Source of the DNA: Burkholderiales bacterium
GTDB taxonomy: Bacteria > Pseudomonadota > Gammaproteobacteria > Burkholderiales > Burkholderiaceae_C
DNA length: 64,000 nucleotides
NCBI GenBank assembly: GCA_003963075.1
Contig: RXJV01000016.1
Location: 140 to 64,139 of the forward strand
Reading direction: 5' to 3'
The position numbers were made by a program, and so were the translations under genes. Shown here in pieces: positions 7,082 through 16,797 of this stretch. How positions within the stretch are numbered: position 1 is the first letter of the stretch; each line of letters begins with the position of its first letter. A model generated the notes under the pieces. The model did no database searches. It was not told where the DNA came from and saw nothing but the letters and a program-made list of their open reading frames with translations.

Positions 7082-8233
7082 ATGGCCTCCAAACGCGATT
7101 ACTACGAAGTCCTCGGCGTCGCCAAGAACGCGACGGAAGACGACATCAAGAAGGCTTACCGCAAGCTGGCGATGAAGTACCACCCCGACCGCAACCAGGG
7201 CGACGGGGCGAAGAAGGCCGAGGAGCAGTTCAAGGAGGCCAAGGAGGCCTACGAGATGCTGTCCGACGCGCAAAAGCGCGTGGCCTATGACCAGTACGGC
7301 CATGCCGGCGTCGACCCCAACATGGGCGCCGGGCGGGGAGGCCCCGGTGCGGAAGGCTTCGGCGGCTTCGCCGAGGCCTTCGGCGACATCTTTGGAGACA
7401 TCTTCGGCGGGGCTGCCGGTGCGCGGCGTGGTGCGGCCGGCCAGCAGGTCTACCGTGGCAGCGACCTCAGTTACGCGATGGAAATCACGCTCGAGGAAGC
7501 TGCCCGCGGCAAGGAAACGCAGATCCGCATCCCGAGCTGGGAAGGCTGCGAGACCTGCGGCGGCACGGGTGCCAAGCCCGGCACCAGCGCCAAGACCTGC
7601 GGCTCCTGCGGCGGCTCCGGCACGGTGCACATGCGCCAGGGCTTCTTCAGCATCCAGCAGACCTGCCCGCACTGCCACGGCAGCGGCAAGATCATTCCCG
7701 ACCCCTGCATGGCCTGCAACGGCCAGGGCAAGGTCAAGAAGACCAAGACGCTGGAGGTCAAGATCCCGGCCGGCATCAACGAGGGCATGCGCATCCGCTC
7801 CGCGGGCAATGGCGAGCCCGGCGTCAACGGCGGGCCGAGCGGCGATCTCTACATCGAGATCCGGATCAAGCAGCACGACATCTTCGAGCGCGATGGCGAC
7901 GACCTGCACTGCACGATGCCGGTGTCGATGATCACCGCGGCGCTGGGCGGCACGATCGAGGTGCCGACGCTGGGTGGCAAGGCCGAAATCGAGTTGCCCG
8001 AGGGCAGCCAGCATGGCAAGACCTTCCGGCTGCGTGGCAAGGGCATCAAGGGCGTGCGGTCAAGCTACCCCGGCGACCTGTACTGCCACATTGCCGTCGA
8101 GACGCCGGTCAAGCTCACCGAGCACCAGCGCAAGCTGCTCAAGGAGCTCGACAAGAGCCTGCGGGACGGAGGCGACCGCCACTCGCCCAATGCGAAGAGC
8201 TGGACCGATCGCGTCAAAGACCTGTTCAAGTAG
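7082..8233 (+). CDS. dnaJ: Chaperone DnaJ
   Basis: J-domain HPD, G/F region with DIF repeats, four CxxCxGxG zinc-finger repeats. Confidence 0.99.
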
Positions 8234-8395
8234 AGCGCGGCACCGCGCCCACACGGCAGCGCTGGCAGCGCTCGGGCCGACGCTGTGGCTATGGCCTGAC
8301 AGCGCTGCGCGCACGCCGGAGCGGGCTGCGCCTTAAATCACGCCACGCGCCGGCAGCGCGGGGAAAACATCTCACATCCCGGAACGCAAAACCTC

Positions 8396-8423
8396 TAAAG
8401 TGAATCGACTGTCACGCTGATAA
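8396..8423 (+). promoter_or_regulatory. Possible sigma-28 (FliA)-type promoter
   Basis: TAAA-N16-GCTGATAA versus consensus TAAA-N15-GCCGATAA; one mismatch and spacing off by one. Confidence 0.3.
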
Positions 8424-8492
8424 CCCATAAGTGATCGCTTCATCGACCGCCACGCTCATAGCGCGCCGCCTTGCACGGCCCAGGGGTTGGTC

Positions 8493-10133
8493 ATGTTTTT
8501 GATGGACGACACCATTCAGGACGCAACGGCGCTGATCATCGACAGCAACGCCAATTCGCGCAGCCTGATGTCGGCCCAGCTGCGCGATCTCGGTGTGGGT
8601 ACCGTGCGCCAGACGCCCCGCGTCAAGGACGCGCGCGTGATGCTGGAGCATCAGACCTTCGACATCGTGCTGTGCGATTACCACTTCGATGTCAGCGACA
8701 CCTCGGGTCAGGACCTGCTCGACGAGTTGCGGCGCGAGGGGCTGCTGCCCTATTCCACGGTCTTCTGCATGGTCACCAGCGAGGCCACCTATGCCAAGGT
8801 GGCCGAAGCGGCCGAAGCTGCGCTGGACGCCTACCTGATCAAGCCCTACACCAGCGCCAACCTCGCCGAGCGGCTGGCAAGTGCCCGCCTGCGCAAGCGC
8901 GTGCTCAGGGACATCTTCGAGGCGATCGAAAACCAGGACTTTGAGACCGCGGCCAACCTCTGCCTGGCTCGCTTCGAGGCCAAGGGCAAATACTGGCTCT
9001 ACGCGGCGCGCATCGGCGCCGAGCTGCTGCTCAGGCTCAAGCGCTATGACGACGCGCGCAGCCTGTACGAAGCCATCATCGCCGCCAAGACCGTCCCGTG
9101 GGCGCGGCTGGGCGTTGCGCGCACCGAGCTCGGCAGCGGCAAGCTGCAGGCGGCAAGACGCACGCTGGAAAACCTGATCGGCGAGCTGCCCGATTACGCC
9201 GATTCCTACGACCTGATGGGCCATGTGCAAATGGAACAGGGCGAGCTGCAAGAGGCGCTGAAAACCTATCAGACCGCGGCCACCCTGACCCCGGGATGCC
9301 TGCTGCGCTTGCAGCGTTGCGGCACGCTGGGCTTTTACGCCGGCCAGCGCAGCGAAGCGCTCAAGATGCTGGAGCGGGCCATGTCGCTGGGCCTGCGCTC
9401 CAAGCTGTTCGACATGCTCAGCCTGGTGCTGATCGGCTTGCTGCGCTTCGATGCCAAGGACTTCAAGGGCTTCAAGTACGCCCACGATGCGCTGTCGGCC
9501 GCGATCGAGCGCGCACCGGGTTCCGTTCGTTTGCGGCGCTTCGCCCTGGTCTTCCGCGGCCTCTCCTACCTGCTCGACCGCCGCGTCGGCCAGGCCCTCG
9601 TGGTCGCGCGCGAGTTGAGCGAGGACGCTGACTCGGGTGACTTTGACCTCGAGGCATCGTCGCTGCTGACCGCGCTGTGGATCCGCCTGTCCAGCCAGGA
9701 GGTCGAACTCGAGGAGATGTTGCCCATCCTGCGCGAGTTGGGCGTGCGTCACTGCACGACCAAGGCCAGCACCGAGATCCTCGTCGCGATGACCGAGGGG
9801 CATTTGGGCGCGGCCGAGCAGTACCGCGGCTGCCATCACCAGATCTTCAACGTCGCGGAGACGGCCATGCGCTATGCGATGCGCGGCAGCGCCAAGGCCG
9901 CCGTCGAACTGCTGATCCAGCAGGGCGAAATCACGCGCAACGCCAAGCTCATCGACATGGCGGGCCTGGTGCTCAAGCGCCATGCCGAGAAGATCGACGG
10001 CGAGGCCGAGCTGACGCAGCGCATCGAGGCGCTGCATGGCCGCTATGTGAAGCCGATGGCCGGCGGCCCGACCAAGGCGTCGCGTGCCACCGGCGGCGTG
10101 GCCTTGCGAACCGCTGCGACGGCGCCCGCCTGA
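8493..10133 (+). CDS. Response regulator: CheY-like receiver followed by a TPR-like helical domain, no DNA-binding output
   Basis: IIDSN, IVLCDY (phospho-Asp), VTSE, LIKPY receiver motifs; amphipathic A/L-rich repeats such as ARSLYEAII and ALKTYQTAATLTP. Confidence 0.8.
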   Translation: MFLMDDTIQDATALIIDSNANSRSLMSAQLRDLGVGTVRQTPRVKDARVMLEHQTFDIVLCDYHFDVSDTSGQDLLDELRREGLLPYSTVFCMVTSEATYAKVAEAAEAALDAYLIKPYTSANLAERLASARLRKRVLRDIFEAIENQDFETAANLCLARFEAKGKYWLYAARIGAELLLRLKRYDDARSLYEAIIAAKTVPWARLGVARTELGSGKLQAARRTLENLIGELPDYADSYDLMGHVQMEQGELQEALKTYQTAATLTPGCLLRLQRCGTLGFYAGQRSEALKMLERAMSLGLRSKLFDMLSLVLIGLLRFDAKDFKGFKYAHDALSAAIERAPGSVRLRRFALVFRGLSYLLDRRVGQALVVARELSEDADSGDFDLEASSLLTALWIRLSSQEVELEEMLPILRELGVRHCTTKASTEILVAMTEGHLGAAEQYRGCHHQIFNVAETAMRYAMRGSAKAAVELLIQQGEITRNAKLIDMAGLVLKRHAEKIDGEAELTQRIEALHGRYVKPMAGGPTKASRATGGVALRTAATAPA

Positions 10134-10206: not shown

Positions 10207-11292
10207 CTAGAACAGTTGGCCTTGTGCTGGCGGCGGCATGCGGTTTGGCCGCCGGAACAGGCCCAGTTCGACCGGCCGCCGCTCGGTGCGCATGCCGTGC
10301 TTGCGCGTGGCGCGCTGCAAACGAGCGCGCAGCAGCTCGGCCCAGACGCCCTCGCCGGTGAAGCGCGTGCCGAAGCGAGCATCGTTGTCCCGCCCGCCCC
10401 GCATCTCCCTCACGCGCGCCATCACCCGCGCGGCGCGGTCCGGGAAATGGCGTTGCAACCAGTCCTGAAACAGCGGGTTCACCTCCCAGGGCAGGCGCAA
10501 GGGAATGCTGAAGGCGCTGCTCGCACCTGCCGCAGCGGCGGCCTCGACGATGCGTTCCAGCTCGGGCTCGTTGATGAAGGGAATGACCGGCGAGATGCTC
10601 ACGCCCACCGGAACACGCGCCTCGGCGAGGGCCTGGATCGTGCGCAGCCGCCGCGCCGGCGCCGCCGCGCGCGGCTCCAGGATGCGCGCGAGCTCGTGGT
10701 CCAGCGTCGTCACGGACAGGTAGACCGACACCAGGCCCTGCGCCGCCATCGGCGCGATCAGGTCCAGCTCGCGCTCGATGCCCGAGGACTTGGTGACGAC
10801 GGAGAACGGGTGCCGGGCCTCGGCCAGCACTTCGACGACACCCCGTGTGATGCCCAGCCGCCTTTCCACCGGCTGGTAGGCATCGGTCGCCGTGCCCAGC
10901 ACCAGCGAGCGCGGCACATAACGCGGACTGGCGAGCGTCTCGCGTAGCCGCTCGGCCGCATTGACCTTGGCGATGATGCGCGTCTCGAAATCGAGGCCGG
11001 GCGACAGGTTCAGGTAGCTGTGCGTGGGCCGCGCGAAGCAGTAGATGCAGCCATGCTCGCAGCCCCGGTAGGGATTGATGGAGTAGTCGAAGCTGATATC
11101 CGGCGACTGGTTGCTAGTGACGATTGCCCTGGCCTGCTCCTCGATGATGTGGGTCGCGGGCGCCAGCCGCTCCTCGGCGGCCTGCTGCTCGAGCGTGCCC
11201 CAGCCATCGTCGACCTGCTCCCGCCGCCGCTGCGTGAAGCGGTGCGGCATTGCGCTCGCACTGCCGCGGCCCTTGATCGACTCCAGAGGCAC
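10207..11292 (-). CDS. PA0069/Rv2578c-family radical SAM protein (spore photoproduct lyase-like)
   Basis: IKGRGSAS N-terminus, NPYRGCEHGCIYCFARPTH (CxxxCxxC), LGTATDAYQP, C-terminal QGQLF; start placed at GTG 11292, downstream of the LexA box. Confidence 0.9.
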   Translation of the reverse strand: MPLESIKGRGSASAMPHRFTQRRREQVDDGWGTLEQQAAEERLAPATHIIEEQARAIVTSNQSPDISFDYSINPYRGCEHGCIYCFARPTHSYLNLSPGLDFETRIIAKVNAAERLRETLASPRYVPRSLVLGTATDAYQPVERRLGITRGVVEVLAEARHPFSVVTKSSGIERELDLIAPMAAQGLVSVYLSVTTLDHELARILEPRAAAPARRLRTIQALAEARVPVGVSISPVIPFINEPELERIVEAAAAAGASSAFSIPLRLPWEVNPLFQDWLQRHFPDRAARVMARVREMRGGRDNDARFGTRFTGEGVWAELLRARLQRATRKHGMRTERRPVELGLFRRPNRMPPPAQGQLF

Positions 11293-11335
11293 CAGGCTGG
11301 GCTGAGCAGGCGCGATGAGCGCGGGCGGTTTAATA

Positions 11336-11351
11336 CTGTAAATATATACAG
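11336..11351. promoter_or_regulatory. LexA (SOS) box
   Basis: CTGT-AAATATAT-ACAG, perfect CTGT-N8-ACAG with an AT-rich spacer in otherwise GC-rich DNA, upstream of the radical SAM gene. Confidence 0.85.
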
Positions 11352-11510
11352 CTTTTGGCCATTCAGCCAGCCACGCAGCCCGCGTAGGCCGAGGGCCGCG
11401 CCGGCCGCTTGAGCCTTGCGGCACGACGCGCTCAGCCATGCCCTGCCGCTGAGTCGCGAATACCGTGCTGGCCAGGGGCATCGCCGCGCCATGGCGGGCG
11501 AGCCGTGGCC

Positions 11511-11933
11511 CTAGCGAAGCAAACGGCGCGCCTGCTCCAACCCTGGGCTGTCGGGAGCGTCGATGCGCTGGCGCAGCTCGATCAACTGCTCTGTCAACGC
11601 GCGGCCGAGGCTGGTGTGGCCGGCGGCACGGTGCAGAACGGCGAAGGCATGCAACTGACGGGCTTGCTGTTCGATGTCGCGCACGGCCCAGCGGTTGGAG
11701 TCGCCGAGTTGCTCGTAGGCCTTCAGGGCTTGTTCGGCATCGTCGCTACCGGGCTGGGCCTCGGCGAAGGCCGTCAGCAGGGCGAGCGCGCCGCTGAAGT
11801 CGCCGCCGGGTGCCGACATCGTGTGCAGCAGGCCATCCCGGCGCTCGCGGCTGACGGCGATTCTGCCGCCGGCCAAGTCAAGTTGTGCCCGGCGCGCCCG
11901 GGCCTGCTGCCTCAACAGTTCCGTACGTGGCAT
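11511..11933 (-). CDS. Hypothetical all-helical protein (possible TPR-like remnant)
   Basis: 140-codon ORF filling the gap, in-frame stop at 11976-11978 upstream; C-terminus LIELRQRIDAPDSPGLEQARRLL resembles TPR-like tails. Confidence 0.45.
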   Translation of the reverse strand: MPRTELLRQQARARRAQLDLAGGRIAVSRERRDGLLHTMSAPGGDFSGALALLTAFAEAQPGSDDAEQALKAYEQLGDSNRWAVRDIEQQARQLHAFAVLHRAAGHTSLGRALTEQLIELRQRIDAPDSPGLEQARRLLR

Positions 11934-12094: not shown

Positions 12095-12589
12095 TCAACT
12101 GATGCTGATCAGCAGCGCCGCTTGCAGGATGCGGCAGCGCTGCTCGTCCGGCGGCACCTCGCCGTCCAGCGCGTCGGCCAGAGCGGTGATCGGATGCTCG
12201 GCGGTGGCCAGGCCCGCGAACACCGGGATGCCCGCGCTGCGCGCCAGCCGACCCACCAAGGCGGCCGGCAAATGCTGGCATTCGACCGCGTCGTAGAGCT
12301 GACCGAGCATCCGCGCCGTCTCGTCGATCTCGCGCTCGCTGCTGCGGGCGCTCAGCCCGGGCTGGACCACCGAGACATGCGCGCCAAGCGCCGTGGCGGC
12401 CTGGACGAACTCCAGCGCACTGTGGTCGCCCTTGCACGGCGACAGCAGCGCCAGGCGCTTGCCGCTGAGCAGGCGCACCGAGCCGTCGCCGGCCCCGGCG
12501 AGGGCTCGCGCCTGCCGCATCAGGGCTGCGGCATCCCTGACGTCGGCGAAGTCGGCACCGGCGGCGCCTGGACGAGGTGATGAACACAT
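12095..12589 (-). CDS. Truncated ornithine carbamoyltransferase-like protein (carbamoyl-phosphate domain only, predicted inactive)
   Basis: LSGKRLALL, FVQAATALGAHV, ETARMLGQLYDAV and IPVFAGL..EHPITALAD align with the OTC N-domain; STRT replaced by GDHS; no ornithine domain. Confidence 0.75.
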   Translation of the reverse strand: MCSSPRPGAAGADFADVRDAAALMRQARALAGAGDGSVRLLSGKRLALLSPCKGDHSALEFVQAATALGAHVSVVQPGLSARSSEREIDETARMLGQLYDAVECQHLPAALVGRLARSAGIPVFAGLATAEHPITALADALDGEVPPDEQRCRILQAALLISIS

Positions 12590-12623
12590 GGCGGCGAGCG
12601 TAGCGAAGGCGACGGTGCGCCGT

Positions 12624-12637
12624 TTGACCACCGTCAA
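12624..12637. promoter_or_regulatory. FNR/FixK-type binding site
   Basis: TTGAC-CACC-GTCAA within the palindrome GTTTGAC-N4-GTCAAAC; centred 41.5 nt from the ATG at 12589, with a minus-strand -10 TACGCT at 12597-12602. Confidence 0.7.
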
Positions 12638-12784
12638 ACCGCGGCCACACGACCGATGGTCAGGGGACAGTCACCATCGGTTCACGCACTGTTACGCAGC
12701 GCGACCAAGCGATGCCGCGCATTGCTTCTCCGGTGTCACGGCCTGCCTAGCATGCCTTCCATCGATCCCCACACGGAGCAGCGC

Positions 12785-13546
12785 ATGTACACCCAGACCG
12801 CCCACACCTCAGCCGGCCACAGCCCAGCCCGTCGCCAGGCCTCGGGCGACCTGACCAGGGGCTGCGGTCAACGTGCGACCGAGTTGCTGCAGCTCATCGC
12901 CGCCGTGCTCGAACCCAAGCGCCGCGTCGTGCATGCCGGCGATGTGCTCTACCGCGCCGGCGAGCCGCTGACCAACCTGCACCTGCTGAATTCAGGCCTG
13001 TTCAAGCTGATCAGCCTGTCGGCGGATGGCCGCGAGCAGGTGGTCGGGCTGCGCTTTCGCGGCGACTGGCTGGGCTTCAGTGCGATCGCCGAGGGCCACT
13101 ATGCCTGCGAGGCGATTGCGATGGACACCGGCGAGGTCTGGACCGTGCGCTACGAAGCCCTGCTGCAGGCCTGCAGCCGCCACCCCAAGCTGATGGCCCT
13201 CGTGCACGAGGCCATGAGCCACGAGATCGTGCGCGACCGCGACACGCTGATCGCCCTGTGCACGCTGCCGGCAGACGCGCGGGTCGTGGCCTTCCTGCAG
13301 TACTGGGCGGCTTCGCTGGCCGCGCGCGGCCTGCGCTCCGATCAGATCAGCCTGCGCCTGACCCGCGCCGAGATCGGCAACTACCTGGGCCTGACGCTGG
13401 AGACGGTCAGCCGGGTGCTCTCCAAGCTGGCACGGGCCCGGCTTATCGCCTTCAACGAAAAGAGCCGCCGGGACATCTGCATCCCGGACTTCCACGCGCT
13501 CGACGCCTTCGTGCAACGCCGCGAAGCCGGTGTCGGCCTGCACTGA
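12785..13546 (+). CDS. Crp/Fnr-family transcription factor, FixK-like (no Fe-S cysteine cluster)
   Basis: cNMP-like domain (DGREQVVGLRFRGDWLGF), HTH LTRAEIGNYLGLTLETVSRVLSKL; GGAG RBS before ATG 12785. Confidence 0.9.
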   Translation: MYTQTAHTSAGHSPARRQASGDLTRGCGQRATELLQLIAAVLEPKRRVVHAGDVLYRAGEPLTNLHLLNSGLFKLISLSADGREQVVGLRFRGDWLGFSAIAEGHYACEAIAMDTGEVWTVRYEALLQACSRHPKLMALVHEAMSHEIVRDRDTLIALCTLPADARVVAFLQYWAASLAARGLRSDQISLRLTRAEIGNYLGLTLETVSRVLSKLARARLIAFNEKSRRDICIPDFHALDAFVQRREAGVGLH

Positions 13547-13579
13547 GGCCGCGGCGCTCCGTCAGCGCTCCGTCGGCGC

Positions 13580-15664
13580 TCAGTCCGCGCCCGACAGCGC
13601 CCGCACAATGGCCTGGCCAAGTTCGGCGCGCGAATAGGGCTTCTGAAGCAATTCCCAACCGGGCGGCGAGTCCCGATCGGCATCCAGCAGCTCCACGGAG
13701 AAGCCGGACATCAGCAGGATGCTCAAGCCGGGCAGGCGCGACTGCGCGATGCTGGCCAGTTCGGTGCCGCGCATGCCGGAGCCGAGCGCGATGTCGGTCA
13801 GCAGCAGTTGGAAGGCCGCCCCAGGCGCCAGCAACAGCAACGCCTGCTCGGCACTGGCACAGGCGGTAACCTCGCAACCCAGCGTCGCGAGGAACTGCTC
13901 GGCGACCGAGCGCACCTCTGCATCGTCCTCCACCATCAGCACCCGCAGCCCCTGGGGGATGCCATCGGCGGCGGCAGGGTGGGCATCGGCGGCATCCGGC
14001 TCGCCCCAGGGCCTCGGCAGATACAGCGAGATCGTGGTGCCCACACCCGGAGCCGACTCGATCGCCACCGCACCGCGCGATTGCTTGACGAAGCCGTAGA
14101 CGGTGCTGAGCCCCAGGCCGGTGCCGCGCCCGGACTGCTTGGTGGTGAAGAAGGGCTCGAAGGCTCGCTCCCTGACCTCCTCCGACATGCCCGACCCGGT
14201 GTCGGAAATCGCGATGCACAGGAAGCGATCATCCTGGGCGCTGGGATCGTCGATCTCGCGACGCACCCGCGCCGGCAGCCGGCCGGCCAGGCCGACGACG
14301 AAGCGCAGCGAGCCGCCGTCGGGCATGGCGTCGCGTGCATTGATGGCGATATTGAGCAGCGCGGCTTCGAGCTGGCCCGGGTCGGCCTGCACGGTGGCAT
14401 AGGGGTCTTGCAGGTCAACGCTGATGGCGATGCGTTGGTCCAGCGTGCGCCTGAGCATGTCGGCCAGCGAATGCAGCATCCCGCCGACGTCGACCGCGGT
14501 CGGCTGCAGCACCTGACGCCGCGAGAACGCGAGCAGCTTGCTGGTCAGCTCGGCACTTCGCCGCGCCGCGCGGGTCGCCGCGCCGACGAGCTGCTGACCC
14601 AACGCGTCGCTGGCCAGGGACGGCAACTCCTCAAGCACCTGCAGATTGCCCTGGATGACGGTCAGCAGGTTGTTGAAGTCATGGGCGATGCCCCCGGTCA
14701 GTTGCCCGACGCTCTCCAGCCGCTGAGCATGCTTGAGCGCCTCCTCGCTCTGGGCCCGCTGCAGGCAGGTGGCGAGCAGGTTGGCCAGCGACTCCAGGAA
14801 GCGCGTGTCATCGCTGTTGAAGTGCGACGCTTCGCGCGACAGGGCCGTCAGCACGCCAACGACCCGGCCACGGTCGGTCAACGGCACCGCCAGCGCGCTC
14901 GCCACGCCGGCATCGTGCCAAGCCTGGGGAAGCTCGAAGCCCGCCGCCTGGTGCAGTTCATTGACGATGAGCGGCTGCCCCTGCAACAGCACCCGCCCGG
15001 CCCAGGTGTCGGGGCGGTTGGGCGTCAGGCTGCCGACCGGCGCACCGTCCATGTCGCCCGAGCGGCTCACCACACGGAAGGCCAGGCGGTCCGGCTCCAG
15101 CAGCTTCACGCTCGCGAACTCCACTTCCAGCGCCTGTGTCGCCACCGTGGGTGCACGCAGCAGCAGCCGCTGCGGGTCCCGTTCATCCACCGCGCTGCGG
15201 CCGAGCTGTGCAAGGTGTTCGCTGTGGCGCGCCCGCCGCAAGGCCTGCTTGACCCGCGGATAGGCGCCAATGTCCCGGATGGCCGCGACGACAAAGGGCA
15301 GGCCCTGGCTCTGCAGTGGGCTCAACGCGATCTCGACCATGACCTCGCTGCCGTCGCCGCGCCGGGCGACGAGCTCCATCTGCGTACCCATGGGCCGTGT
15401 ACGCGGCGCCTGGCCATAGGCTTCACGGTAGGCCGCATGGCGCGGGCGGATGCTGTCGGGCACCAGGGCATCCACGCTCAGGCCGGCCAGGGCCTGAGGC
15501 GTGTAGCCCAGCAACACCGCGGCAGCCGGATTGGCCAGCGCGATGTGGCCGTTCGCGTCCACCAGCAGCAAGGCATCGGGGCAGGCCGCGAACAGCGCGC
15601 GGTAAACCGCTGGATCGTCCGCCGGCTGCGGCAACGCGGATGGCGGCACGCCGGTCGGCTGCAT
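13580..15664 (-). CDS. Hybrid sensor histidine kinase PAS-GAF-HisKA-HATPase-REC with a FixL-like PAS domain
   Basis: PAS LVPDSIRPRHAAYREAY..RPMG..RRGDGS; H-box GGIAHDFNNLL; NARDAMPDGG, FFTTK, GTGLGL; C-terminal receiver VEDD..LTDI..QKPY. Confidence 0.92.
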   Translation of the reverse strand: MQPTGVPPSALPQPADDPAVYRALFAACPDALLLVDANGHIALANPAAAVLLGYTPQALAGLSVDALVPDSIRPRHAAYREAYGQAPRTRPMGTQMELVARRGDGSEVMVEIALSPLQSQGLPFVVAAIRDIGAYPRVKQALRRARHSEHLAQLGRSAVDERDPQRLLLRAPTVATQALEVEFASVKLLEPDRLAFRVVSRSGDMDGAPVGSLTPNRPDTWAGRVLLQGQPLIVNELHQAAGFELPQAWHDAGVASALAVPLTDRGRVVGVLTALSREASHFNSDDTRFLESLANLLATCLQRAQSEEALKHAQRLESVGQLTGGIAHDFNNLLTVIQGNLQVLEELPSLASDALGQQLVGAATRAARRSAELTSKLLAFSRRQVLQPTAVDVGGMLHSLADMLRRTLDQRIAISVDLQDPYATVQADPGQLEAALLNIAINARDAMPDGGSLRFVVGLAGRLPARVRREIDDPSAQDDRFLCIAISDTGSGMSEEVRERAFEPFFTTKQSGRGTGLGLSTVYGFVKQSRGAVAIESAPGVGTTISLYLPRPWGEPDAADAHPAAADGIPQGLRVLMVEDDAEVRSVAEQFLATLGCEVTACASAEQALLLLAPGAAFQLLLTDIALGSGMRGTELASIAQSRLPGLSILLMSGFSVELLDADRDSPPGWELLQKPYSRAELGQAIVRALSGAD

Positions 15665-16461
15665 CAGCAGACCGGACCGACTGGCGGCACGAAGATGTAG
15701 CCAGCGCCGCGCACCGACTTGATGATCTGCGGGTTGGCCGCGTCCGATTCCAACTTGCGGCGCAGCCGCCCGATCTGCACGTCGATCGTGCGGTCGAACG
15801 GCCCGGCCTCGCGGCCACGCGTCTGCTCCAGCAGGAAGTCGCGTGAGAGCACCCGGCCCGGGTTCTGCGCCAGGGCCGCGAGCAGCTCGAACTCGCCGCT
15901 CGTGAGCCTCACCTCGACGCCATCCGGCCCGTCGAGGCGGCGCGCGGCCAGATCAAGCTGCCAGTCGAGAAAGCCGAGCCGGGAGCCACCGACCGACGGC
16001 AGTGCAGCCACGGGCCCGCCCGGGACCGGCGGCGTCGTGGTCGCAGGCGGCAGCAGGCGTCGCAGCACGGCTTTGATCCGGGCCACCAGTTCACGCAGGT
16101 CGAAGGGCTTGGTGACGTAGTCATCGGCCCCGACTTCCAGGCCCACCACCTTGTCGACCGCATCGCCCCGACCGGTGATGATGACCAGGCCGCAGCGCCA
16201 GTGTTCGCGCAGCTGTCGCGCGATCGCGAAACCGTCCTCCCCGGGCAAACCAAGGTCCAGCAGCACCAGTTCGGGCGGGTCGACCGGCATCAGCGTCATC
16301 AACGCCCGGCCCGAGTGGAGCTGCGTGACCCGAAAGCCCTGCAGCCCCAGGTAGCCGGCCAGCAATTCGGTGATCGCCGACTCATCATCGACAACGGCAA
16401 TATGCTGGGAGGTCAAGCGTTGCTCAGCTGAAGCGTTATGGCGGTGCGACGATTTTGTCAT
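15664..16461 (-). CDS. OmpR/PhoB-family response regulator
   Basis: AVVDDES, VLLDLGLPGEDG, TKPFDLRELVARI, winged helix RTIDVQIGRLRRKL; TGATG coupling to the kinase; true start may be slightly downstream. Confidence 0.92.
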   Translation of the reverse strand: MTKSSHRHNASAEQRLTSQHIAVVDDESAITELLAGYLGLQGFRVTQLHSGRALMTLMPVDPPELVLLDLGLPGEDGFAIARQLREHWRCGLVIITGRGDAVDKVVGLEVGADDYVTKPFDLRELVARIKAVLRRLLPPATTTPPVPGGPVAALPSVGGSRLGFLDWQLDLAARRLDGPDGVEVRLTSGEFELLAALAQNPGRVLSRDFLLEQTRGREAGPFDRTIDVQIGRLRRKLESDAANPQIIKSVRGAGYIFVPPVGPVC

Positions 16462-16720
16462 CGATCGAACGGATGTCGGACGACGTCCGAGCCGTCGCTG
16501 ACGGCGGGGCGTCGGCGACGGCGGTCACGGCGCCAGGGCCTGCATTGGCGGCATGTTCGCGTGGGCGCCCGATGGCCAAAGCCAGTTGCCAGAGCCAGTT
16601 GGCCATCCGGCCGCCAAAGCCGGCCGGATGGCCAAGCCTCACTGCGGCGCTGCGCGGTCGCCAAAGAAAAACAGGTTAGTGCCTGGCGGCACTAACCTGT
16701 CGATCCATTTCTTGTTTTTC

Positions 16721-16797
16721 TGGCGCGGCTGGCAGGATTCGAACCCACGACCCCTTGGTTCGTAGCCAAGTACTCTATCCAACTGAGCTACAGCCGC
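16721..16797 (-). tRNA. tRNA-Arg (ACG)
   Basis: GCGGCTG/CAGCCGC acceptor stem, D-loop AGTTGGATAGA, anticodon arm CTTGG-CTACGAA-CCAAG, T-loop GGTTCGAATCC, encoded CCA. Confidence 0.98.

What the first reader, a model, noticed from the sequence alone, without database searches (positions are those of the whole stretch)
12095..16461. Putative hFixL-FxkR-FixK-like oxygen-sensing cascade in a betaproteobacterium
Seen: hybrid kinase whose PAS keeps the FixL-like helix LVP..IRPRH..Y..AY, including the His equivalent to the FixL proximal heme ligand; a translationally coupled OmpR-type (not FixJ/NarL-type) regulator; and a convergent Crp/Fnr factor lacking the FNR cysteine cluster and the C122 equivalent. 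Known: Rhizobium etli uses a hybrid hFixL, the OmpR-family FxkR and FixKf. Inference: an analogous three-tier module, with an added GAF domain and the OTC-like pseudoenzyme as local output, located just downstream of tRNA-Arg.
Basis: partly seen in the sequence, partly recalled or inferred. Interest (0 to 1): 0.75.

Follow-up and report, generated by a model that had tools for sequence, protein, structure and literature searches.

The report
Heme-sensor kinase cascade driving FNR-like regulator
This is a conserved four-gene signalling module of soil and freshwater Burkholderiales: a probable heme-binding sensor kinase and its OmpR-type partner appear to switch on a cluster-less FNR copy, which drives a "half-OTCase" gene; it mirrors the rhizobial hFixL-FxkR-FixK oxygen cascade but was probably built independently.

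Summary
The window has an OmpR-type regulator (15664-16461) whose stop overlaps (TGATG) the start of a soluble PAS-GAF-HisKA-HATPase-REC hybrid kinase (13580-15664). A convergent Crp/Fnr gene (12785-13546) lacks the FNR cysteines. A divergent 164-aa OTCase N-domain pseudoenzyme sits at 12095-12589.

The PAS domain matches only heme-PAS structures (FG214, DosP, FixL). His76 and Met92 align with FG214's heme ligands and are invariant in 118 orthologues. The FixL/DosP O2-binding Arg is Met here.

An 11-genome footprint shows two promoters in the intergenic region:
- Phased GTTAC-type hexamers lie about 62 nt upstream of a predicted Crp start site, with the same geometry as the FxkR K-box.
- A TTGAC-N4-GTCAA box sits at about -41.5 of a leaderless pseudoenzyme gene.

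The kinase occurs in 75 of 401 genomes of the family. The pseudoenzyme lies within 15 kb in 56 of those. Neighbours are often hypoxia-type genes.

It is not an orthologue of the rhizobial system. The regulator forms its own clade, the Crp is closer to FNR than to FixK, and the sensor architecture differs.

Verdict: a new Betaproteobacterial variant of a known cascade type. Every biochemical step is inferred, and the signal (O2, redox, CO or NO) is open.

The parts
15664..16461 (-). OmpR-family response regulator (265 aa; receiver Asp69; winged-helix output)
   Evidence: Pfam Response_reg plus Trans_reg_C; NCBIfam best match OmpR at 219.7 bits, below the cut-off. 45% identical to FxkR9. Forms its own clade with 100/99 support.
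13580..15664 (-). Soluble hybrid histidine kinase: PAS-GAF-HisKA(His328)-HATPase_c-REC(Asp624). Its start overlaps the regulator's stop (TGATG).
   Evidence: Kinase core plus REC is 46% identical to hFixL9. More than 120 orthologue clusters at 63% identity or higher, and every one that carries a taxon name is Burkholderiales.
15260..15613 (-). Putative heme-b PAS domain (aa 18-135). His76 codon at 15437-15439, Met92 at 15389-15391, Met96 at 15377-15379.
   Evidence: The top 14 PDB sequence hits are all heme-PAS proteins (FG214/10JX 1.3e-17, DosP, FixL); the next hit is at 4e-4. The top 32 Foldseek hits are heme-PAS. His76 and Met92 are invariant in 118/118 orthologues and Met96 in 114/118. They map to FG214 His156 and Met172.
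14756..15181 (-). GAF domain (aa 162-303), less conserved than the PAS domain
   Evidence: Pfam GAF_2, GAF and GAF_3. Only weak PDB hits, and none to a heme-binding GAF such as DosS. Conservation profile.
12785..13546 (+). FNR-lineage Crp/Fnr regulator without an Fe-S cluster (253 aa); recognition helix LTLETVSRVL
   Evidence: A. fischeri FNR 3e-30, FixK2 7e-13, DNR 3.6e-5. Cys122 is replaced by Trp. The N-terminus is variable with no conserved Cys.
12670..12716 (+). Phased direct hexamers GTCACC-N4-GTTCAC-N5-GTTACG-N4-GCGACC-N4-GATGCC. This is the predicted binding array of the OmpR-type regulator (K-box-like).
   Evidence: Footprint across 11 loci. 14 phased [GT]TNAC pairs against 0.14 in dinucleotide shuffles, with 0 of 1000 shuffles reaching 14. 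K-box consensus GTTACA-N4-GTTACA from PMC7888657.
12748..12761 (+). Predicted Crp promoter: -10 TAGCAT (12748-12753) and conserved CATCGA at the inferred start site (about 12761). No -35 hexamer.
   Evidence: CCTAGCAT and CATCGA are conserved in 10 of 11 loci. The start site is inferred, not measured.
12624..12637 (.). FNR/FixK-type box TTGACCACCGTCAA, centre 12630.5
   Evidence: Conserved in all Crp-linked loci, and as a one-mismatch version in L005. The genome has 16 strict boxes against about 2 expected.
12597..12602 (-). -10 TACGCT of the pseudoenzyme promoter. It places +1 on or next to the A of ATG 12589, giving a leaderless mRNA.
   Evidence: The AGCGTAG block is conserved. The box centre lies 41 nt before the ATG in L084, L085, L087 and the window.
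12095..12589 (-). 164-aa OTCase N-domain pseudoenzyme ('half-OTCase'), the conserved local output
   Evidence: OTCace_N only. STRTR becomes GDHSA, catalytic Arg106 becomes Gln, HPxQ becomes HPIT. 164 homologue clusters with a fixed length of about 164 aa. Lies within 15 kb of the kinase in 56 of 75 genomes.
13468..13487 (-). Terminator-like hairpin plus T-run after the kinase gene, inside the 3' end of the convergent Crp gene
   Evidence: This is a consensus scan only; the number of sites found equals the number expected from shuffles.

Best explanation
This is a self-contained three-tier sensory cascade. No step has been shown biochemically; what the data show directly is the sequence, the homology and the comparative conservation.

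1. A cytoplasmic hybrid kinase carries an N-terminal PAS domain that most likely binds heme b through His76. Met92 (and possibly Met96) is available as a displaceable sixth ligand. Kinase output would therefore follow the heme ligation or redox state, set by low O2, reduction, or CO/NO.
2. The kinase phosphorylates the translationally coupled OmpR-family regulator.
3. The phosphorylated regulator binds a head-to-tail array of GTTAC-type hexamers spaced 10-11 bp apart. The array is centred about 62 nt upstream of a promoter that has no -35 element. Binding activates the convergent Crp/Fnr gene.
4. That protein is an FNR duplicate that lost its [4Fe-4S] cysteines but kept the E--SR recognition helix. 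Its activity is therefore set by its abundance. It binds TTGAY-N4-GTCAA boxes.
5. The box shared with its own divergent neighbour is at class II position (-41.5) and drives a leaderless mRNA for the 164-aa half-OTCase. In other genomes the same box type precedes adjacent USP, phosphoketolase and MBL-RNase genes, and sometimes the regulator-kinase operon itself.

The canonical Fe-S FNR encoded elsewhere in this genome probably shares these boxes. That would give the same two-sensor logic as FnrN plus hFixL-FxkR-FixK in Rhizobium.
For: - Domain architecture and gene coupling.
- PAS domain: exclusively heme-PAS relatives by sequence and by fold. The heme ligands of the closest solved relative FG214, a spectroscopically proven heme-b protein with His156 proximal and Met172 ligating the ferrous iron, are invariant in 118 orthologues.
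- This is the only heme-PAS-type domain detected in the genome.
- The kinase core is 46% and the regulator 45% identical to hFixL9 and FxkR9.
- The 11-locus footprint conserves the hexamer array, both -10 elements and the FNR box. The phased repeats are strand-specific and about 100-fold over shuffles.
- The hexamer pair centre lies 86.5 nt before the Crp ATG, against 93-95 nt for the Rlv3841 K-boxes. Its position relative to the predicted start site is about -62, against the published -62.
- The Crp lacks the cluster cysteines and keeps the FNR DNA-reading helix.
- FNR boxes are enriched 8-fold in the genome and sit before ccoN, hemN/fnr and cyoA.
- FNR boxes precede neighbouring hypoxia-type genes in other loci.
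- The module is syntenic in 10 loci with varying flanks: USP, Zn-ADH, ADP-forming acetyl-CoA synthetase, phosphoketolase, BON, phbB, cydAB.
- The kinase and the half-OTCase co-occur.
Against:
- The distal Arg that gives FixL and DosP their O2 response is Met here, so O2 may not be the ligand.
- The window's hexamers match the K-box only partly: GTTACG-N4-GCGACC is 8 of 12 positions, and the exact consensus is absent from the genome.
- GTTAC-like half-sites are, from my own recollection of the OmpR literature, typical of the wider OmpR subfamily, so another OmpR-like regulator could bind them. The genome encodes several at 45% identity.
- Start sites are predicted from conserved -10 elements only.
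- The FNR box could be served by the canonical FNR alone.
- One related locus (L005) has the regulator, kinase and half-OTCase but no adjacent Crp.
- How a hybrid kinase with its own receiver passes phosphate to the regulator without an Hpt domain is unknown, as it also is for hFixL.
Confidence: 0.55

Rival explanations
1. The wiring is the same, but the sensor is not an O2 sensor. A six-coordinate His/Met heme would report redox state, CO or NO, as in FG214, RcoM or ferrous EcDOS.
For: The FixL Arg220/DosP Arg97 equivalent is Met96 in 114 of 118 orthologues. The invariant Met92 aligns with FG214 Met172, which ligates the ferrous heme. In Ideonella the module adjoins Rrf2 and NnrS genes, which are typical of NO responses.
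Against: Most neighbourhoods are hypoxia or energy-starvation genes (USP, ADH, cydAB, ADP-forming acetyl-CoA synthetase) rather than CO or NO metabolism genes. EcDOS is also His/Met in the ferrous state and still responds to O2 (from my own knowledge of the literature).
Confidence: 0.25
2. The two-component pair and the Crp gene are neighbours without a direct link. The hexamer array is bound by another regulator, and the OmpR-type regulator controls other targets.
For: The regulator's orthology to FxkR is unsupported. The window's match to the K-box consensus is partial. L005 keeps regulator, kinase and half-OTCase without an adjacent Crp. Only four K2-pattern sites exist genome-wide, so no wider regulon can be seen to confirm the motif.
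Against: The Crp gene stays next to the pair in 10 of 11 loci across at least six genera, although the flanks differ. Head-to-tail hexamers at helical spacing, at a promoter lacking a -35 element, are, from general knowledge of the family, the typical OmpR/PhoB-family site layout.
Confidence: 0.15
3. The PAS domain binds no heme. It binds another ligand or is only a dimerisation module, and the conserved His/Met are structural.
For: Heme binding cannot be computed. The AF2 model is only moderate (pLDDT 71.7, FG loop below 50). Identity to proven heme-PAS domains is 24-40%.
Against: There is a gap of about 10 orders of magnitude in E-value between heme-PAS hits and all other PAS structures. Both ligand positions are invariant. 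The PAS domain is the most conserved part of the sensor region.
Confidence: 0.12

Closest known systems
hFixL-FxkR-FixKf cascade of Rhizobium etli / R. leguminosarum (Zamorano-Sanchez 2012; PMC7888657)
   Same: Both have a hybrid kinase with a heme-PAS-type sensor and C-terminal receiver, an OmpR-family regulator, head-to-tail hexamers (6+4+6) about 60 nt upstream of the start site of a Cys-less Crp/Fnr gene, FNR-type boxes downstream, and coexistence with a true Fe-S FNR. The kinase core is 46% and the regulator 45% identical.
   Different: Here the sensor is PAS-GAF, not PAS-PAS. The PAS is only 24% identical to hFixL9's and lacks the distal Arg. The regulator is not in the FxkR clade. The Crp derives from FNR rather than FixK. 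The gene order differs. A half-OTCase is an obligatory partner. The host is Betaproteobacteria and no nitrogen-fixation genes were seen next to any locus examined.
FixLJ-FixK systems (Bradyrhizobium, Caulobacter, Burkholderia) and the B. cenocepacia lxa low-oxygen locus (PMC3721108)
   Same: A heme-PAS kinase sits above an FNR-type factor. The TGA-N6-TCA motif precedes USP, ADH, phbB and MBL-RNase-type genes. A Crp, regulator and kinase are clustered inside the low-oxygen island.
   Different: Judging from a B. stagnalis Crp locus (L095), where a FixL-like heme-PAS lies near the Crp and none of the four Crp loci examined held a homologue of this module's regulator, PAS-GAF kinase or half-OTCase, the Burkholderia locus looks like a FixLJ-type arrangement and not this module; the identity of its response regulator was not checked.
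FG214 heme-PAS one-component regulator, PDB 10JX (bioRxiv 10.64898/2026.03.15.711900)
   Same: It is the closest solved PAS (1.3e-17, 36-40% identity). The proximal His and the RxMG methionine are shared.
   Different: FG214 is an HTH-PAS transcription factor with bis-His ferric ligation. Its distal His175 is Gln95 here. The output here is a kinase.
EcDOS/DosP heme-PAS
   Same: His77 aligns with His76. Both have a Met-containing FG loop and a soluble sensor.
   Different: DosP Met95 and Arg97 align with Thr94 and Met96 here. The DosP output is c-di-GMP phosphodiesterase.
FixT (FixK-induced inhibitor of FixL)
   Same: Both are small proteins encoded beside the cascade and expressed from a FixK/FNR-type box. 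This is an analogy only.
   Different: There is no sequence relationship. A feedback role for the half-OTCase is pure conjecture.

Membership tests
Heme-binding PAS domains (FixL/DosP/FG214 type) | Proximal His on the F-alpha helix, in the L-x-P-x-x-x-R-x-x-H-x-x-Y context | tested here: met
   His76 aligns with DosP His77, the hFixL9 heme His and FG214 His156. It is invariant in 118/118 orthologues.
Heme-binding PAS domains (FixL/DosP/FG214 type) | Closest relatives by sequence and by fold are proven heme-PAS domains | tested here: met
   The top 14 phmmer hits (1e-17 to 4e-9) and the top 32 Foldseek hits are all FG214, FixL or DosP.
Heme-binding PAS domains (FixL/DosP/FG214 type) | Actual heme binding | not testable with these tools
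   Needs the purified protein and UV-visible spectra.
FixL-type O2 sensors | Distal Arg on G-beta (BjFixL Arg220, DosP Arg97) that hydrogen-bonds the bound O2 | tested here: not met
   The position is Met96 in 114 of 118 orthologues and Arg in 2.
hFixL-FxkR-FixK cascade (orthology) | The regulator belongs to the FxkR orthogroup | tested here: inconclusive
   45% identity to FxkR9, but FxkR9's best hit in this genome is on contig C74. In the tree the module clade (100/99) and the FxkR9+L010 clade (94/93) join in an unresolved polytomy. Unrelated alphaproteobacterial OmpR-like regulators score 46-48%.
hFixL-FxkR-FixK cascade (orthology) | K-box GTTACA-N4-GTTACA upstream of the fixK-type gene | tested here: inconclusive
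   The geometry and the GTTAC core are conserved, and the position is about -62. The window's pair matches 8 of 12 positions and the orthologues 9 of 12. The exact consensus has 0 hits in the genome.
hFixL-FxkR-FixK cascade (orthology) | hFixL architecture PAS-PAS-HisKA-HATPase-REC | tested here: not met
   The architecture here is PAS-GAF-HisKA-HATPase-REC. Only the transmitter and receiver align well (46%).
FixK-type (sensor-less) Crp/Fnr factors | No N-terminal Cys cluster, no Cys122 equivalent, and an FNR-type E--SR recognition helix | tested here: met
   Variable N-terminus without a conserved Cys, Trp at the Cys122 position, and LETVSR conserved.
FixK-type (sensor-less) Crp/Fnr factors | Orthology to rhizobial FixK | tested here: not met
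   FNR 3e-30 against FixK2 7e-13 in the PDB search. 29% identical to FixK9b against 37% to this genome's own FNR.
Ornithine carbamoyltransferase | STRTR and HPxQ carbamoyl-phosphate motifs, catalytic Arg106, and the C-terminal ornithine domain | tested here: not met
   GDHSA, HPIT, Gln at the Arg106 position, and no second domain. Scores of 40-55 bits are far below the equivalog cut-offs of 280-559.
Class II FNR-dependent promoter | Box centred at -41.5 from a mapped start site | not testable with these tools
   The geometry fits: the centre is 41 nt before the ATG, and -10 TACGCT lies 7 nt before the ATG, in four genomes. No start-site data are available.

The most novel reading that the evidence does not exclude
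The half-OTCase is not a metabolic relic. It would be a dedicated partner of the cascade, for example a FixT-like feedback modulator of the kinase or regulator, or a small-molecule or redox adaptor using its invariant YDAVECQ cysteine. The sensor would be a His/Met heme switch that reads redox state, CO or NO rather than O2. Together these would define a previously undescribed signalling system of Comamonadaceae/Sphaerotilaceae that arose independently of the rhizobial cascade.
Probability: 0.2. Interest if true: 0.8.

Novelty: new variant of a known kind. Interest (0 to 1): 0.55.

Why it matters
- It would be a second, apparently independent invention of the design [quoted passage not shown], so far only known from Rhizobiaceae.
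- It is present in about one fifth of the sampled genomes of a large environmental Betaproteobacterial family: Roseateles/Pelomonas, Variovorax, Ideonella, Methylibium and Albitalea.
- It gives concrete, testable sites for how strictly respiratory soil and water bacteria enter low-oxygen survival programmes: His76/Met92, the hexamer array at 12670-12716, and the box at 12624-12637.
- It ties an unexplained, widely mis-annotated "ornithine carbamoyltransferase" fragment to that response.

Tried and rejected
- Direct orthology or horizontal transfer from rhizobia. Rejected by the reciprocal search, the regulator tree and the Crp's affinity to FNR.
- Equivalence with the Burkholderia lxa regulators. 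One of the four Crp loci examined in B. stagnalis has a FixL-like heme-PAS nearby, and none has the PAS-GAF kinase or the half-OTCase. The B. stagnalis regulator at 45% identity is paired with a different kinase and has no Crp within 9 kb.
- Alphaproteobacterial regulator hits at 46-48% identity (Sinorhizobium, Azospirillum, Microvirga). These are ordinary OmpR-like pairs, so that level of identity is not diagnostic.
- A heme-binding GAF like DosS/DosT. No support; there are only weak generic GAF hits.
- A recent foreign island at tRNA-Arg. GC content is flat at 0.66-0.72, flanks are not shared with other genomes, and no integrase was seen. The tRNA gene is a separate transcription unit.
- An FNR box or K-box in front of the regulator gene in the window. 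None was found, although L086 and L087 have an FNR box there.
- Transcript evidence.
- A GC3-only gene filter in related loci did not separate sense from antisense frames. It was replaced by a GC1>GC2 rule.

Full report
**Anatomy.** The region holds four genes.
- An OmpR-family response regulator lies at 15664-16461(-).
- A 694-aa hybrid histidine kinase lies at 13580-15664(-). It has PAS, GAF, HisKA, HATPase_c and receiver domains and no membrane segment.
- A convergent Crp/Fnr regulator and a divergent OTCace_N-only ORF complete the set.
- The regulator's stop and the kinase's start overlap as TGATG.
- Comparison with orthologues and the local sequence moves two starts. The Crp starts at ATG 12785, preceded by GGAG. 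The OTC-like gene starts at ATG 12589, giving 164 aa, the length called in most orthologues examined.
- tRNA-Arg(ACG) at 16721-16797 has its own promoter-like site and a 14-bp-stem terminator, so it is a separate transcription unit.

**Sensor.**
- Residues 1-153 hit 14 PDB sequences at 1e-17 to 4e-9. All are heme-PAS proteins (FG214/10JX, DosP, FixL). The next PAS hit is at 4e-4.
- An AlphaFold model (pLDDT 71.7) gives the same ranking: the top 32 Foldseek hits are heme-PAS.
- FG214 is a proven heme-b protein. His156 is proximal, His175 is the ferric distal ligand, and Met172 ligates the iron in the reduced crystal.
- In the alignment these map to His76, Gln95 and Met92. His76 and Met92 are invariant in 118 of 118 orthologues.
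- The Arg that contacts bound O2 in FixL and DosP aligns with Met96, which is Met in 114 of 118.
- The domain is therefore very probably a heme-PAS, but of a His/Met type. O2, redox state, CO and NO all remain possible signals.
- The GAF domain is less conserved and shows no tie to heme-binding GAFs.
- This is the only heme-PAS-type domain detectable in the genome.

**Relation to the rhizobial proteins.** I fetched the Rlv3841 pRL9 cluster.
- The kinase core plus receiver is 46% identical to hFixL9, and the PAS domain 24%.
- The regulator is 45% identical to FxkR9. However, FxkR9's best match in this genome is a paralogue on contig C74.
- Alphaproteobacterial hits at 46-48% identity are ordinary OmpR-like pairs.
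- In a maximum-likelihood tree the module regulators form their own clade (100/99). FxkR9 groups with a Hyphomicrobiaceae regulator (94/93). The two clades join in an unresolved polytomy.
- The Crp is much closer to FNR (3e-30) than to FixK2 (7e-13) or DNR. It has Trp at the Cys122 position, no conserved N-terminal Cys, and keeps LETVSR.
- It is 37% identical to this genome's true FNR, which carries the Cys cluster and sits next to hemN.
- The system therefore works like hFixL-FxkR-FixK, but orthology is not supported.

**Regulatory DNA.** I aligned the Crp/half-OTCase intergenic region from 11 loci: the window plus Roseateles/Pelomonas, Ideonella, Albitalea, Methylibium, Variovorax and metagenome-assembled genomes. 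The conserved elements are:
- TTGAY-N4-GTCAA (window 12624-12637).
- An AGCGTAG block, which reads as -10 TACGCT on the minus strand (12602-12597).
- A run of head-to-tail hexamers at 10-11 bp spacing. In the window this is GTCACC, GTTCAC, GTTACG, GCGACC, GATGCC at 12670-12716. Some genera lack exactly one 10-bp unit.
- CCTAGCAT (-10, 12748-12753) followed by CATCGA.

Phased [GT]TNAC pairs number 14 against 0.14 in dinucleotide shuffles, with 0 of 1000 shuffles reaching 14, and only 2 on the opposite strand. The loci are related, so this is not a true probability.

With +1 at about 12761, the GTTACG-N4-GCGACC pair is centred near -62. It lies 86.5 nt before the ATG. The Rlv3841 K-boxes (GTTACAAACTGTTACA) are reported at -62 and lie 93-95 nt before the fixK ATGs. 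The exact K-box consensus does not occur in this genome.

For the half-OTCase gene, the box centre is 41 nt before the ATG in four genomes. The -10 element lies 7 nt before the ATG. This implies a class II FNR-type promoter and a leaderless mRNA.

**Context and distribution.**
- The four-gene set is syntenic in Variovorax, Methylibium, Roseateles/Pelomonas, Ideonella and Albitalea. Some genomes have a PAS-GGDEF-EAL gene, with or without an MCP gene, inserted after the Crp.
- Flanks are not shared with the window. They repeatedly include USP, Zn-ADH, ADP-forming acetyl-CoA synthetase/acetyltransferase, phosphoketolase, BON, phbB and MBL-RNase genes, and in one metagenome-assembled genome cydAB. 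Several of these are preceded by FNR boxes. This resembles the Burkholderia lxa low-oxygen locus.
- In a B. stagnalis stand-in, one of four Crp loci has a FixL-like heme-PAS nearby and none has this module's PAS-GAF kinase, regulator or half-OTCase, so the Burkholderia regulators do not look like this module.
- In 401 genomes of the same family, the PAS-GAF kinase occurs in 75 (48 of 201 genera). An OTCace_N-like hit lies within 15 kb in 56 of those, typically about 2.2 kb away. Most exceptions are fragmented assemblies. OTC hits without the kinase are mostly full-length argF-type genes.
- The window's genome has 16 strict FNR boxes against about 2 expected. They lie before ccoN, hemN/fnr, cyoA, a P-type ATPase gene and bchF.

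**Pseudoenzyme.** The 164-aa protein aligns with the carbamoyl-phosphate domain of OTCases. STRTR is GDHSA, Arg106 is Gln and HPxQ is HPIT, and the ornithine domain is absent. Its 164 homologue clusters keep the length and a YDAVECQ motif. Its function is unknown. A feedback or adaptor role is conjecture.

**Literature.** Searches found no description of an FxkR-type cascade in Betaproteobacteria. The library is limited to open-access papers and preprints.

**Verdict.** The module is a widespread, uncharacterised Betaproteobacterial analogue of hFixL-FxkR-FixK. It has a distinct His/Met heme-PAS-GAF sensor, an FNR-derived third tier and an obligatory half-OTCase output. It is best read as an independently assembled version, not an orthologue. 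All mechanistic steps are inferences from homology and comparative genomics. Two earlier first-reader notes, on the pseudoenzyme and on the leaderless class II promoter, agree with what I derived independently.

Noticed in passing
genome contig C111, about 7619-8455 and 15047: A canonical FNR with the N-terminal Cys cluster (CASCNLRELC) is divergent from hemN, with a shared TTGATCCACGTCAA box. A second box precedes ccoN. The genome therefore has a direct Fe-S O2 sensor as well as the cascade.
   Followed up: partly
genome contig C102, about 41620: An FNR box lies 41 nt upstream of a BchF-like gene (2-vinyl bacteriochlorophyllide hydratase). The organism appears to carry photosynthesis genes under FNR-type control.
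   Followed up: no
window 16721-16797; L003:5429-5504; L084:4620-4844: Three of 11 module loci lie just downstream of tRNA genes, and these are different tRNAs (Arg, Thr, Lys x2). In L084 small hypothetical genes and an HTH_3 gene lie between. This may be a trace of past mobility, but no integrase was seen.
   Followed up: partly
L087:9077-12436, L089:9077-12397, L090:9082-14123: In some genomes a large PAS-GGDEF-EAL gene lies downstream of the Crp in the same orientation, and in L090 a PAS-MCP chemoreceptor gene does too. This suggests c-di-GMP and taxis outputs of the cascade.
   Followed up: no
L005:221-6802: In an uncultured betaproteobacterium the order is cydA-cydB-regulator-kinase-half-OTCase with no adjacent Crp. 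A near-FNR box (TTGCGCGACGTCAA) still precedes the half-OTCase gene.
   Followed up: partly
window 16598-16630 (- strand): A long GC-rich inverted repeat (ggccatccggccgg...ccggccggatggcc) lies between the tRNA-Arg terminator and the regulator gene. Its function is unknown.
   Followed up: no
window 11511-11933 (-) and 8487-10133 (+): A 140-aa ORF downstream of the half-OTCase gene has no Pfam match. Nearby are a receiver-TPR protein and a radical-SAM gene (10207-11481). None of these is conserved next to the module in other genomes.
   Followed up: partly
L010:9055-10743: A Hyphomicrobiaceae metagenome-assembled genome has a regulator that clusters with FxkR9. It is divergent from a Crp gene, with a triple ATTACA/GTTACA/TTTACA repeat between them. 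This looks like a likely true FxkR-FixK pair outside Rhizobiaceae.
   Followed up: partly
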